Below are positions 1-3,000 of a stretch of 42,184 nucleotides of DNA, piece by piece. Source of the DNA: a virus (Duplodnaviria; Heunggongvirae; Uroviricota; Caudoviricetes); the IMG/VR virus record IMGVR_UViG_2579779052_000008, positions 1-42,184 of that record, one strand, 5' to 3'. Position numbers: made by a program. Each line of letters opens with the position of its first letter. The first letter of the stretch is position 1.

Positions 1-3000
1 ATGGAAACAGAAAAAGGCAAACGCGGCCTTTTCTTCATTTTCAGAGTAACTCCCGCCAGTTGCGAGCAAAAAAGCCGCTACGCTTTAGTTATACGTGCTA
101 ATTCAAGAGAAGAGACCATGGACAACAACAAAATTGATCAACACAGCGACGAAATTGAAGTTGAGAGCGAAGAAAAAGAGCGCGGCAAAAAAATAGAAAT
201 AGATGAAGACCGACTCCCCTCCCGGGCGATGGCAATTCATGAGCATATCCGCCAGGATGGTGAAAAAGAGCTGGAACGCGACGCAATGGCGCTACTGTGG
301 TCAGCCATTGCGGCGGGGCTGTCGATGGGCGCTTCGCTACTGGCAAAAGGGATATTTCATGTCGAACTGGAAGGCGTGCCGGGCAGCTTCTTGCTGGAGA
401 ATCTCGGTTATACCTTTGGTTTTATTATCGTCATTATGGCCCGCCAGCAATTATTTACCGAAAACACCGTGACTGCGGTACTACCCGTCATGCAAAAACC
501 GACAATGAGCAACGTTGGCTTACTTATGCGGTTATGGGGCGTCGTGCTGCTGGGTAATATTCTCGGGACAGGTATTGCGGCGTGGGCATTTGAATATATG
601 CCAATCTTCAATGAAGAAACTCGCGATGCATTTGTCAAAATCGGCATGGATGTGATGAAGAACACCCCCAGCGAGATGTTTGCCAACGCGATCATTTCCG
701 GCTGGCTGATCGCCACTATGGTATGGATGTTTCCTGCAGCGGGTGCGGCAAAGATTGTGGTGATTATATTGATGACCTGGCTTATTGCCCTGGGTGACAC
801 CACTCACATCGTTGTCGGTTCTGTTGAAATCCTCTATCTGGTGTTTAACGGTACGCTGCACTGGAGCGATTTCATCTGGCCCTTCGCACTACCTACTTTA
901 GCGGGGAACATCTGCGGCGGCACCTTTATCTTCGCGTTAATGAGTCATGCACAGATCCGTAACGACATGAGCAACAAGCGCAAAGCAGAAGCACGCCAAA
1001 AAGCAGAACGTGCGGAAAACATTAAGAAAAATGATAAAAACCCGGCATAAATGGCGAGGGTTTAAGCAATCGAGCGGCAGCGTACTTACCCCGCAGTCCA
1101 TTAGCGGGTATACTCATGCCGCATTGTCCTCTTAGTTAAATGGATATAACGAGCCCCTCCTAAGGGCTAATTGCAGGTTCGATTCCTGCAGGGGACACTT
1201 GTTTCGAGTTCGCCGCAATCCGTAATAGTCCGCCGAATCCCGCCAGTATCAAGCCTTTCATGACATCCCTGTTCGCAGTAGTTCGCCTCAGACCGTTGAC
1301 AACCGCGCCTTTTGGCGGGTAAAAAACGAGTAAAACAACTTTACCCACCGGAATTTTACCCATGCTCACTGTTAAGCAGATAGAGGCCGCCAAGCCTAAA
1401 GACAAACCCTACCGAATGCTCGACAGAAATGGCCTGTACCTGTACGTTCCGGTGTCTGGCAAAAAGGTGTGGCAATTGCGCTATAAGCTCGACGGCAAAG
1501 AGAAGGTGCTGACAGTGGGTAAATACCCTCTCATGTCATTGCAGGAAGCTAGGGATAAAGCGTGGACCGCAAGGAAGGATGTTTCTGTCGGGGTCGATCC
1601 GGTTAAGGCCAAAAAGTTGTCTGTGAAGGACAATTCATTTTCAGCTATTTATCATGAATGGTACGACCACAAGCGGCAGGTTTGGTCAGAAGGATATGCG
1701 GATGAACTTTCTCGCATGTTCCGTGACGATATTCTGCCAATGATCGGATATCTGGAAATACAGGACATTGAGCCGATGCAGATACTGGAGGTGATCCGGA
1801 GGTTTGAAGAACGTGGGGCAATGGAGAGGGCAAATAAAGCCAGAAGAAGATGTGGCGAGGTTTTCAGGTATGCGATCGTTACAGGAAGGGCCAAATATAA
1901 TCCGGCTCCTGACCTTGCTGATGCCATGAAGGGATATAGAAAGAAAAACTACCCTTTCCTTCCTGCAGATCAGATACCAGCATTCAATAACGCGCTATCT
2001 GGCTTTTCCGGGAGTATTATTTCGAAAATTGCCACACAGGTTTTGCAATATACAGCGCTGCGTACAAAAGAACTCCGTTCTATGCAATGGGAAAACGTCG
2101 ACTTTGAAAACAGGATGATAACCATCGACGAAGAGGTAATGAAAGGGCGCCGTGTTCATGTAGTTCCGATGTCAGATCAGGTAATAAATCTTCTGAATAC
2201 TCTCAAACCGATCACAAGCCCTGTTTCCTCTTTTGTGTTCGCCGGGCGGAATGATAAGAAAAAGCCCATCAGCGAGAATGCCGTATTATTAGTTATCCGA
2301 CAGATTGGCTATGAGGGGCTGGCGAGCGGGCATGGATTCCGCCACCAGTTCAGCACAATAATGAATGAGCATGGCTGGCCAGCGGACGCGATTGAAAAAC
2401 AACTCGCGCACACCGCCAGCGGGTCAATACGCGGAATTTACAACCATGCTCAGTATCTGGATAAACGCAGAGAGATGATGCAGTGGTGGGCTGATTACAT
2501 CGATGGTCGTGCAGGCCAGTAAGCCATTACGCAAACTCTTCCAGGGTCAGGTTCCATCTGCGCCATCTCCTGAGATGCCAAAATCTGCGAGCAGCTATCC
2601 AGAAATGAACACTGGCCGTTTACTCAATCCGCAAGGTATCGCACCATAACTGCGGACATACTTGTTGTAGTTACGGTGCGCACCACTCTTTCATTGTTAA
2701 ACCGCCAGGCTATCGCTTCGCACATCACAAATGATGTGCGTCACAACGCCGGCGACAGTGACATCGTCCAGAGCCTCACCTTCAATCGCTTCACCGTCAT
2801 CGGTGATCAGCGCAGCACCCATCCATTTTGCGAACTGGCTACGACCGTCATACAGCGCCAGCACCATATCACCATCGCCTGGTTGCAGTGACCGATCAAT
2901 AACCGCATAGCCGATGTTCGTCTCTATCACCTGGCAGTTTGCATCCACCCGGCACAGTATTTCAGGCGTAATAGTCCGGTCGGCATAGTCTGCCGCAGGA

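What the first reader, a model, noticed from the sequence alone, without database searches (positions are those of the whole stretch)
1201..1361. Tandem CGCCG(C)AATCC-type repeats in the attL arm between tRNA and integrase
Three closely spaced imperfect direct repeats (1211-1221, 1231-1240, 1241-1250) lie in the short region that should hold the integrase promoter and arm-type recombinase or excisionase sites. In the related KplE1 system the excisionase binds attL and represses the integrase promoter, so these repeats are candidate binding sites.
Basis: inference. Interest (0 to 1): 0.35.

Follow-up and report, generated by a model that had tools for sequence, protein, structure and literature searches.

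The report
Excisionase sites in prophage attL arm
The flagged repeats are an off-register reading of two of the five already-mapped binding boxes for the TorI excisionase in the left junction of a prophage inserted in the argW tRNA gene, so the region is an ordinary copy of a well-studied system.

Summary
The three strings are at the stated coordinates. Only the first two form a repeat that chance is unlikely to give; the third is weak and is not conserved in relatives.

The region 1199-1361 is the P' arm of attL of a prophage integrated in argW. The argW tRNA-Arg gene lies at 1126-1198 and an IntS-type integrase at 1362-2522. The prophage's excisionase gene, at 41984-42184, encodes a protein 66/66 identical to TorI.

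Aligning the region to K-12 KplE1, where the sites were mapped by experiment, places five TorI boxes with a GTYCG core:
- 1206-1213
- 1226-1233
- 1269-1276
- 1279-1286
- 1289-1296, which abuts the -35 hexamer TTGACA at 1296-1301

The integrase arm sites (GGGTAAA type) lie at 1317-1361 and overlap the -10.

In KplE1 the boxes needed for repression are I4 and I5, not I1 and I2.

The general interpretation is right; the motif, the third unit and the link to repression are not. This is a new member of a known kind, of low interest.

One lead is modestly new. A near-invariant TCC at 1219-1221 sits where relatives carry a full third box, which suggests a sixth, degenerate excisionase position.

The parts
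1126..1198 (+). argW tRNA-Arg(CCT), the integration target. Its 3' end is rebuilt by phage DNA and reads ...GGGGACAC-TTG, so no CCA is encoded.
   Evidence: ARAGORN; Rfam tRNA at 63.4 bits; sequence; identical tRNA in all 5426 E. coli genomes.
1187..1198 (+). Core identity segment TGCAGGGGACAC, shared by the tRNA and the closest phage attP (Klebsiella phage Chronis). The crossover must lie inside it.
   Evidence: Alignment of the window with the phage attP records. The KplE1 core CTGCAGGGGACACCAT is given in PMC2951348.
1206..1213 (+). TorI box I1, GAGTTCGC (K-12: CAGTTCGC).
   Evidence: Published coordinates 2464409-2464436 and the mutated pentamers, carried over through alignment A2. The pentamer carries 1.87 bits across 16 lineages.
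1218..1222 (+). ATCCG, the middle position of block 1, exactly 10 nt from both I1 and I2. It is a candidate sixth, degenerate excisionase position and a 4/5 match to I2 GTCCG.
   Evidence: TCC at 1219-1221 carries 1.89 bits and is 98% identical across lineages. Relatives carry a full or near-full box at this position. It is not among the five published sites. Inference.
1226..1233 (+). TorI box I2, TAGTCCGC (K-12: CAGTCCGC).
   Evidence: pentamer 1.79 bits.
1234..1241 (+). A-rich + CCC element, CGAATCCC here and AAAATCCC in K-12. It is kept in all lineages whatever their box motif, and a second copy lies on the P arm of phage attP. Its binder is unknown.
1269..1276 (+). TorI box I3, CTGTTCGC.
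   Evidence: Published coordinates 2464472-2464499, alignment and conservation of 1.82 bits.
1279..1286 (+). TorI box I4, TAGTTCGC. This box is required for TorI repression of PintS in K-12.
   Evidence: 1.87 bits.
1289..1296 (+). TorI box I5, CAGACCGT (K-12: CAGATCGT). It abuts the -35 and is required for repression in K-12. The GACCG core seen here is not one of the three tested pentamers.
   Evidence: 1.64 bits, the most variable box.
1296..1301 (+). -35 hexamer TTGACA of the integrase promoter.
   Evidence: Identical to the K-12 PintS -35. Invariant in 16 lineages at 2.00 bits. Lies 105-106 nt from the core in 13 lineages.
1320..1325 (+). -10 hexamer TAAAAA of the integrase promoter, 18-nt spacer. 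It lies inside the first arm-type site. The start of transcription is inferred at about 1331-1334.
   Evidence: Identical to the K-12 -10 (TAaAAa), whose start site was mapped by primer extension. The consensus scan does not call it because position 6 is A.
1317..1334 (+). Two direct integrase arm-type motifs, GGGTAAA at 1317-1323 and GAGTAAA at 1328-1334. The first overlaps the -10 and is the P'1 equivalent.
   Evidence: All P' sites contain TAAA and P'1 overlaps the -10. Conservation is 2.00 and 1.79 bits. The HK620 record annotates the equivalent stretch as an attP repeat. The repeat finder family D4.
1340..1361 (-). Two arm-type motifs in the opposite orientation, TTTACCC at 1340-1346 and 1355-1361 (GGGTAAA on the - strand). 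The second ends at the integrase ATG.
   Evidence: the repeat finder D2, I2 and I3. Conservation is 1.95 and 2.00 bits. HK620 attP repeat annotation.
1362..2522 (+). IntS-type tyrosine integrase, 386 aa, with arm-binding, central and catalytic domains.
   Evidence: ORF. Pfam Arm-DNA-bind_3, Phage_int_M and Phage_integrase. 85% identical to K-12 IntS and 99.2% to the Klebsiella phage Chronis integrase.
41984..42184 (+). Excisionase (RDF) gene torI/hkaC. Its last bases, GGGTAA, are the start of the first P-arm integrase site of attR. The rest of attR lies beyond the window.
   Evidence: tblastn 100% to HK620 HkaC. 66/66 identical to PDB 1Z4H 'Tor inhibition protein'. Sequence of the window end and HK620 P arm.

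Best explanation
Positions 1199-1361 are the P' arm of attL of an intact-looking, mosaic prophage integrated in argW. The prophage uses the KplE1/HK620-type recombination module.

The real repeated elements are five same-strand 8-bp boxes with a GTYCG core. They form two blocks:
- Block 1: I1 at 1206-1213 and I2 at 1226-1233, 20 nt apart.
- Block 2: I3 at 1269-1276, I4 at 1279-1286 and I5 at 1289-1296, 10 nt apart, with I5 touching the -35.

These are the orthologues of the TorI sites mapped in KplE1. The prophage's own excisionase, which is identical to TorI, would bind them cooperatively and bend the arm. The integrase would be bound at the core and at the GGGTAAA-type arm sites (1317-1361). 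Together they would build the excisive intasome.

Occupation of I4 and I5 blocks RNA polymerase at the -35 and so represses the integrase gene. The integrase represses itself through the arm site that overlaps the -10.

- Unit 1 is the last 3 nt of I1, a variable spacer, and the conserved TCC of the middle position.
- Unit 2 is the last 3 nt of I2 plus a conserved A-rich/CCC element.
- Unit 3 is a lineage-specific chance resemblance.

Shown here: the sequence, the orthology, the conservation and the identity of the proteins. Shown in K-12 by others: binding, repression and the promoter. Inferred for this locus: that the same proteins bind the same positions.
For: Setting:
- The tRNA, the integrase and their orientation are as described.
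- The excisionase is 66/66 identical to TorI.
- The integrase is 85% identical to IntS.

Sites:
- PMC2951348 gives the TorI sites as 8-bp boxes. I1 and I2 are 12 nt apart; I3, I4 and I5 are 2 nt apart. The cores are GTTCG, GTCCG or GATCG. I4 and I5 are needed for repression, and the P' sites carry TAAA.
- Gap-free alignment with K-12 and HK620 puts every box, the -35 and the -10 at the same offset from the integrase ATG.

Statistics:
- The box motif is enriched: AGTYCGC 3 observed against 0.06 expected, 0 of 5000 shuffles; 5 G[TA][TC]CG on one strand against 1.0 expected, 8 of 5000.
- The five pentamers, the -35 and the arm motifs are the conserved islands in 16 lineages from Escherichia to Edwardsiella, Pantoea and Erwinia, at 1.6-2.0 bits. 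The spacers carry about 0.6-0.9 bits.

Wider comparison:
- More distant relatives keep the same layout and the same 105-106 nt distance from core to -35, but with other box motifs.
- In three phages the box motif changes together with the excisionase sequence.
Against: - No binding experiment exists for this allele.
- The attL arm is only about 84% identical to K-12.
- The flanks of the boxes differ. I5 reads GACCG, a core not among the three pentamers tested in K-12.
- The absolute K-12 coordinates fit the boxes only if the ATG is taken at 2464565, as the paper states. The two published start sites ('T and A') then fall on A-A, so there may be a 1-2 nt ambiguity (my mapping).
- I could not read the paper that mapped the sites (Virology 2010).
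- attR is outside the window, so excision competence cannot be judged.
Confidence: 0.85

Rival explanations
1. The reader's units as written (CGCCGCAATCC, CGCCGAATCC, CGCCAGTATC) are themselves the recognition sequences of the excisionase or of the integrase arm-binding domain.
For: - Units 1 and 2 are nearly identical, and such a pair occurs in only 47 of 1000 shuffles.
- The TCC and CC at their 3' ends are conserved.
Against: - The CGCCG parts are not conserved. K-12 reads CGCTC, CGCAA and CCTGA.
- Unit 3 carries 0.63 bits, which is background level.
- The published TorI cores are GTTCG, GTCCG and GATCG, and the published arm sites carry TAAA. Neither is contained in the units.
- The similarity of units 1 and 2 is accounted for by the shared CGC of I1 and I2 plus two conserved elements of different kinds.
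Confidence: 0.05
2. Block 1 holds three excisionase positions rather than two: I1, a degenerate middle position ATCCG (1218-1222), and I2, all 10 nt apart. The layout would resemble the X1-X1.5-X2 filament of lambda Xis. The 'AATCC' of the reader's unit 1 would then be part of a real but weak sixth site. This adds to the best explanation rather than excluding it.
For: - TCC at 1219-1221 is as conserved as the boxes, at 1.89 bits.
- It lies exactly one helical turn from both I1 and I2.
- At the same position, relatives carry a full or near-full box of their own type: Rouxiella GTTCA/GTTCT/GTTCG, phage g341c GTTCT/GTTCG/GTTCT, L018 GTAAAC/GTAAAC/GTCAAC, L027 CGAAC x3, L028 ATTACC/ATTTCC/ATTACC, phiEt88 ATTACC/GTCACC/GTAACC.
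- TorI binding is described as highly cooperative (PMC3509656).
Against: - The published work counts five sites and treats this stretch as a 12-nt spacer.
- The leading G of the core is missing in nearly all members of the KplE1 group.
- The TCC could be kept for another reason, such as DNA shape or a contact made by the neighbouring protomer's wing.
- I could not read the footprinting data.
Confidence: 0.4
3. Unit 3 and the conserved TATCAAG next to it (1241-1259) belong to a host-factor (IHF-type) bending site between the two excisionase blocks.
For: - TATCAAGCCTTTC at 1247-1259 is one mismatch from WATCARNNNNTTR.
- The A-rich/CCC element followed by ATCA recurs on the P arm of phage attP, next to an AATCAA.
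- IHF is used in the in-vitro excision reaction.
Against: - Matches of this quality are at chance level in the window: 63 found against 61.5 expected.
- The stretch 1241-1268 is poorly conserved, at 0.64 bits.
- From my memory of the abstract of Panis et al., Virology 2010, which I could not check here, the only functional IHF site is on attR and none is on attL.
Confidence: 0.1
4. The conservation reflects a small protein-coding gene across the att site. Several phage records annotate one: hkaB in HK620, gp28 in Chronis, gp18 in g341c. The window has an 81-aa ORF at 1160-1405 on the - strand.
For: ORFs are annotated or listed over this stretch.
Against: - No reading frame stays open across the lineages; most have 1-5 stops in every frame.
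- Conservation comes in 5-8 nt islands at 10-nt spacing, not with a period of three.
- Any such ORF is cut in two by integration.
Confidence: 0.02

Closest known systems
KplE1 (CPS-53) prophage recombination module of E. coli K-12: attL, IntS and TorI (Panis et al. 2007, 2010; PMC2951348, PMC3509656)
   Same: - Same integration site (argW) and same gene order: tRNA, attL, integrase on one side and the excisionase at the far end.
- The excisionase is identical, 66/66.
- The five GTYCG boxes, the -35 TTGACA, the -10 TAAAAA and the TAAA-containing arm motifs sit at identical offsets from the integrase ATG.
   Different: - The integrase is 85% identical and the attL arm about 84% identical.
- The core identity is shorter. 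The junction reads GACAC-TTG instead of GACACCAT, so argW loses its encoded CCA.
- I5 is GACCG rather than GATCG.
- The prophage is a roughly 41-kb element with an SfII-type myovirus body, not a 10-kb remnant.
- This attL/int allele is rare in E. coli: 3 records at 95-99% identity among 5426 genomes. It is closest to Klebsiella phages Chronis and RCIP0114.
attP of phages HK620, Sf6 and CUS-3
   Same: The window's RDF is 100% identical to HK620 HkaC, and PMC3509656 reports HkaC and Sf6 P18 as identical to TorI. The boxes and arm repeats are the same. The HK620 record annotates the equivalent arm repeats, the core and the promoter.
   Different: Those are podoviruses, and their int/attP DNA is about 77% identical to the window. 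Here an HK620-type RDF is combined with a Chronis-type int and attL.
Lambda Xis sites X1, X1.5 and X2 on the P arm (cooperative Xis-DNA filament; Abbani et al. 2007, cited in PMC8844411)
   Same: A winged-helix excisionase binds direct repeats about one helical turn apart. The comparison suggests outer specific sites with a degenerate middle position.
   Different: - Unrelated site sequences.
- TorI sites lie on the P' arm (attL), in two blocks, and double as operators of the integrase promoter.
- In lambda, int is not transcribed from within attL.
- That TorI forms a Xis-like filament is inference only.
Satellite phage P4 int/Vis
   Same: The integrase family is the same: 35.6% identity and the same arm-binding domain. 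The integrase gene is repressed both by the integrase and by the excisionase.
   Different: According to PMC2951348, Vis is thought to act on the int mRNA, whereas TorI acts on DNA at the -35. The att sites and the target tRNA differ.

Membership tests
KplE1/HK620-type recombination module | Integration into the 3' end of argW (tRNA-Arg CCT), with a core shared with the tRNA. | tested here: met
   tRNA-Arg(CCT) at 1126-1198 is followed directly by phage DNA. The core TGCAGGGGACAC is shared with the phage attP records.
KplE1/HK620-type recombination module | The integrase gene lies next to attL and is transcribed away from the tRNA, from a promoter inside attL. | tested here: met
   The ORF 1362-2522 is on the + strand. 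The -35 TTGACA and -10 TAAAAA are identical and identically placed to the K-12 promoter, whose start site was mapped. Promoter activity at this locus was not measured.
KplE1/HK620-type recombination module | IntS-like heterobivalent tyrosine integrase (arm-binding plus catalytic domains). | tested here: met
   Pfam Arm-DNA-bind_3, Phage_int_M and Phage_integrase. 85% identity to K-12 IntS over 381 aa.
KplE1/HK620-type recombination module | TorI/HkaC-type winged-helix excisionase encoded at the opposite prophage end, next to attR. | tested here: met
   41984-42184 is 66/66 identical to PDB 1Z4H TorI and to HkaC. Its stop codon lies in the first P-arm GGGTAAA, as in HK620.
KplE1/HK620-type recombination module | Five TorI boxes (8 bp, GTTCG/GTCCG/GATCG cores) in two blocks on attL, the last abutting the -35. 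| tested here: met
   All five positions are occupied: GTTCG, GTCCG, GTTCG, GTTCG and GACCG, at the published spacing. The GACCG core of I5 is a variant not tested in K-12.
KplE1/HK620-type recombination module | TAAA-containing integrase arm-type sites on attL, one overlapping the -10. | tested here: met
   GGGTAAA at 1317-1323 overlaps the -10. GAGTAAA lies at 1328-1334, and TTTACCC at 1340-1346 and 1355-1361.
KplE1/HK620-type recombination module | A matching attR with the duplicated core, so that the element can excise. | not testable with these tools
   No second core copy is in the window. The window ends at the first bases of the P arm.
KplE1/HK620-type recombination module | TorI and IntS physically bind these sites and repress the integrase promoter. 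| not testable with these tools
   Shown for K-12 only. Here it is inferred from protein identity and site orthology.
Lambda-Xis-like cooperative filament (X1-X1.5-X2 logic) | A degenerate middle site between two specific sites is occupied through protein-protein cooperativity. | tested here: inconclusive
   The conserved TCC is one turn from I1 and from I2, and relatives carry full boxes at that position. There are no binding data, and the published count is five sites.

The most novel reading that the evidence does not exclude
In the whole IntS-like family, the excisionase array next to the core would be a fixed 3 + 3 design. It would hold three positions 10 nt apart beside the core and three abutting the -35, with the core always 105-106 nt from the -35. 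The KplE1 group, this window included, would then have a sixth, degenerate TorI position at 1218-1222 that the published five-site map treats as spacer. An excisionase-independent A-rich/CCC element would follow block 1 (1234-1241) and recur on the P arm as an unrecognised architectural site.
Probability: 0.35. Interest if true: 0.35.

Novelty: new member of a known kind. Interest (0 to 1): 0.15.

Why it matters
The finding itself adds little. It re-identifies, in a slightly wrong register, the operator and intasome sites of one of the few prophage recombination modules that have been mapped by experiment.

Three points have some practical value:
- The site map can be transferred to this diverged attL allele. 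A Chronis-type integrase and arm work alongside an HK620/KplE1-type TorI, which shows the boxes are kept across mosaic exchange.
- The comparison across genera gives a testable refinement of the KplE1 intasome model: a possible sixth TorI position and a conserved non-RDF element.
- Annotators should not call ORFs across these att sites.

Tried and rejected
- Tandem Repeats Finder on 1150-1420 found no array.
- A search for a second core copy (attR) found none in the window.
- The sigma-70 consensus scan does not call the promoter, because its -10 is TAAAAA with an 18-nt spacer. It finds only one terminator-like hairpin, inside the integrase gene on the - strand, which is within the number expected by chance.
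- The IHF consensus match at 1247-1259 is at chance level, so I make no claim from it.
- Rfam finds nothing but the tRNA at attL, and nothing above threshold upstream of torI.
- Pfam does not recognise the 66-aa excisionase. The PDB sequence search does.
- The coding explanation is rejected because no frame stays open across lineages.
- The two papers that first mapped the sites (J Biol Chem 2007; Virology 2010) are not held in the library. The box positions therefore rest on coordinates and mutated pentamers quoted in PMC2951348.
- Testing whether box motif and excisionase sequence change together was possible only for three phage attP records. The genomic loci reach only 3 kb and do not include their excisionase genes.
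Full report
**What is in the sequence.**
The window starts in yfdC. The argW tRNA-Arg(CCT) gene follows at 1126-1198, and a 386-aa tyrosine integrase at 1362-2522 on the + strand. The integrase has arm-binding, central and catalytic domains.

- 1211-1221 CGCCGCAATCC
- 1231-1240 CGCCGAATCC
- 1241-1250 CGCCAGTATC

They are not tandem. The first two are 20 nt apart, and Tandem Repeats Finder reports nothing.

Units 1 and 2 differ by one indel. A pair this good within 40 nt turns up in 47 of 1000 dinucleotide-preserving shuffles of 1199-1361. Unit 3 is at edit distance 3 from unit 2, a criterion that about 11% of arbitrary 10-mers meet.

The repeat finder puts the repeat in another register: AGTTCGCCGCAATCCGT, AGTCCGCCGAATCCCGC and AGTTCGCCTCAGACCGT at 1207, 1227 and 1280. 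That register is the one that departs from chance:
- AGTYCGC occurs 3 times against 0.06 expected, and 0 of 5000 shuffles reach this.
- G[TA][TC]CG occurs 5 times, all on the + strand, against 1.0 expected, and 8 of 5000 shuffles reach this.

**What the locus is.**
The stretch from the tRNA to the integrase aligns without gaps to the attL of the K-12 prophage KplE1 (CPS-53) at about 84% identity. It also aligns to the attP of HK620, Sf6 and CUS-3 at about 77%, and to the attP of Klebsiella phages Chronis and RCIP0114 at 94%.

The integrase is 85% identical to K-12 IntS and 99.2% identical to the Chronis integrase.

The last ORF of the window, 41984-42184, is 100% identical to HK620 HkaC. It is 66/66 identical to the solved structure of TorI, PDB 1Z4H.

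The window ends ...AATGGGTAA. The torI stop codon therefore lies in the first GGGTAAA arm site of the P arm, as in HK620. The rest of attR is beyond the window, and no second core copy was found.

The body of the prophage (2.9-23 kb) is 97% identical to SfII/SfI/SfV-type myoviruses. The element is therefore a mosaic phage carrying the argW-type recombination module.

**Transfer of the experimentally mapped sites.**
Panis et al. (PLoS Genet 2010, PMC2951348) report the following for KplE1 attL:
- There are five TorI sites. I1 and I2 are separated by 12 nt (2464409-2464436). I3, I4 and I5 are separated by 2 nt (2464472-2464499).
- The sites were mutated at their cores GTTCG, GATCG or GTCCG.
- I4 and I5, next to the -35, are required for TorI repression. 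Mutating I1 and I2 together has no effect (repression ratio 5.4).
- The integrase P' sites all carry TAAA, and P'1 overlaps the -10.
- The promoter is TTGACA / TAaAAa, with start sites mapped by primer extension.

Taking the ATG at 2464565, as the paper states, the two blocks fall on five 8-mers. In K-12 these read CAGTTCGC, CAGTCCGC, CAGTTCGT, TGGTTCGC and CAGATCGT, each with the pentamer at positions 3-7. This is internally consistent.

Through alignment A2 the window equivalents are:

| Element | Window position | Sequence |
|---|---|---|
| I1 | 1206-1213 | GAGTTCGC |
| I2 | 1226-1233 | TAGTCCGC |
| I3 | 1269-1276 | CTGTTCGC |
| I4 | 1279-1286 | TAGTTCGC |
| I5 | 1289-1296 | CAGACCGT |
| -35 | 1296-1301 | TTGACA |
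| -10 | 1320-1325 | TAAAAA |
| arm-type motifs, + strand | 1317-1323, 1328-1334 | GGGTAAA, GAGTAAA |
| arm-type motifs, inverted | 1340-1346, 1355-1361 | TTTACCC, TTTACCC |

Unit 3 matches no mapped site.

**Conservation test.**
I collected the core-to-ATG stretch from 22 loci (16 after removing those more than 90% identical). They come from Escherichia, Klebsiella phage, Citrobacter, Dryocola, Erwinia and its phages, Pantoea, Mixta, Edwardsiella, Rouxiella, Serratia and Tatumella. The information content per position was:

| Element | Bits |
|---|---|
| GTTCG pentamers | 1.64-1.87 |
| -35 | 2.00 |
| arm motifs | 1.79-2.00 |
| stretch between I2 and I3 | 0.64 |

The non-box parts of units 1 and 2 are mixed. 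The 'CGCCG' bases are variable, and K-12 reads CGCTC, CGCAA and CCTGA there. A TCC at 1219-1221 (1.89 bits) and an AA..CC at 1235-1240 are conserved.

No reading frame stays open across the lineages, so the conservation is not due to coding.

**How it most likely works.**
By orthology, the TorI made from 41984-42184 binds the five boxes cooperatively. It bends the P' arm and, together with integrase bound at the core and at the GGGTAAA-type sites, forms the excisive complex with attR.

Occupation of I4 and I5 hinders RNA polymerase at the -35. Integrase bound at the site overlapping the -10 represses its own gene. The integrase would therefore be kept low and constant, and excision would be triggered by TorI synthesis, as argued for KplE1.

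The basis of each step is as follows:
- Shown here: the sequences, the positions, the conservation and the identity of the proteins.
- Shown by others in K-12: binding, repression and the start of transcription.
- Inferred: that they apply to this allele. This includes whether the untested GACCG core of I5 is recognised.

**What lies beyond the published map.**
More distant IntS-like loci at argW, with 60-75% integrase identity, and two further phages keep the same geometry. The distance from core to -35 is 105-106 nt in all 13 lineages examined. Their box motifs differ: GTAAAC, CGAAC, ATTACC/GTTACC, TCCA and GTTCT. Their arm motifs differ too (GGGCATA). This is what one expects if boxes and arms follow the specificity of the excisionase and the integrase.

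In these relatives block 1 has three positions 10 nt apart. The middle one is either a full box (g341c, L018, L027, Rouxiella) or a degenerate one (L028, L030, L032, L029, L031).

This suggests a sixth, degenerate TorI position, comparable to X1.5 of lambda Xis. I rate it at about 0.35-0.4, because the published count is five and I could not read the footprints.

The 'AATCC' of unit 2 is different in kind. It belongs to an A-rich/CCC element that follows block 1 in every lineage whatever the box motif, and that recurs on the P arm of phage attP. Its binder is unknown. The neighbouring IHF-like match is at chance level.

**Verdict.**

The region, the proteins and the kind of regulation are right. 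The motif is wrong, and so is the implied link of these particular repeats to promoter repression.

The locus is a new, mosaic member of a well-characterised module. Interest is low. The 3 + 3 layout and the non-RDF element are modest leads for specialists.

Noticed in passing
window 1190-1201: In this attL the phage-supplied 3' end of argW reads AGGGGAC-A-CTT instead of AGGGGAC-A-CCA, so the tRNA gene of the lysogen has no encoded CCA end. K-12 with KplE1 keeps CCA. NCBI's annotation pipeline (PGAP) annotates a 72-nt tRNA in strain fM51a, which has the same allele, against 75 nt in K-12.
   Followed up: partly
window 1234-1254; L003 (HK620) about 31 nt left and 48 nt right of the core start; likewise L004, L005, L006, L087, L088: An A-rich + CCCC(TG) element lies on both arms of attP in the same orientation. 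It is kept whatever the excisionase-box or arm motif. Its binder is unknown.
   Followed up: partly
window 41951-41966: A copy of the tRNA T-arm sequence, (TT)GCAGGTTCGATTCC(C), sits about 20 nt upstream of the torI start codon, after a terminator-like hairpin. HK620 has the same sequence, and its record marks a cII-type TTGC-N6-TTGC promoter site overlapping it. AGGTTCGATTCCC also lies upstream of the excisionase gene in Erwinia phages Midgardsormr38 (two copies) and phiEt88, although phiEt88 uses different excisionase boxes. The motif contains a GTTCG. There is no Rfam match.
   Followed up: partly
window 2900-23300, 1362-2522 and 41984-42184: The prophage is a mosaic. Its structural genes are 97% identical to SfII/SfI/SfV-type Shigella myoviruses. 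Its integrase and attL are closest to Klebsiella phage Chronis (99.2% aa identity). Its excisionase is identical to HK620/KplE1 TorI and only 86.6% identical to the Chronis excisionase. This attL/int allele is rare in complete E. coli genomes: 3 records at 95-99%.
   Followed up: partly
L018, L024, L027-L032, L034, L087, L088 (core to integrase ATG): Distant IntS-like modules at argW keep a fixed 105-106 nt between the core and the -35, and a 3 + 3 array of boxes. The box motif is replaced (GTAAAC, CGAAC, ATTACC, TCCA, GTTCT), and so is the arm motif (GGGCATA for GGGTAAA).
   Followed up: partly
window 1160-1405 (- strand); L003 1120-1260; L004 1492-1677; L087 942-1085: Short hypothetical ORFs are listed or annotated across the att site in several phage records (hkaB, Chronis gp28, g341c gp18). 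No frame is kept open across lineages, so they are probably not genes.
   Followed up: yes
window 26462-26617 (-) and 34361-34443 (+): The prophage carries tRNA-Thr(TGT) and tRNA-Asn(GTT) genes side by side. ARAGORN also calls an unusually long (83 nt) tRNA-Ala(CGC) that lies within the coordinates of a listed 215-aa ORF (34163-34810); I did not check whether this call is real.
   Followed up: no
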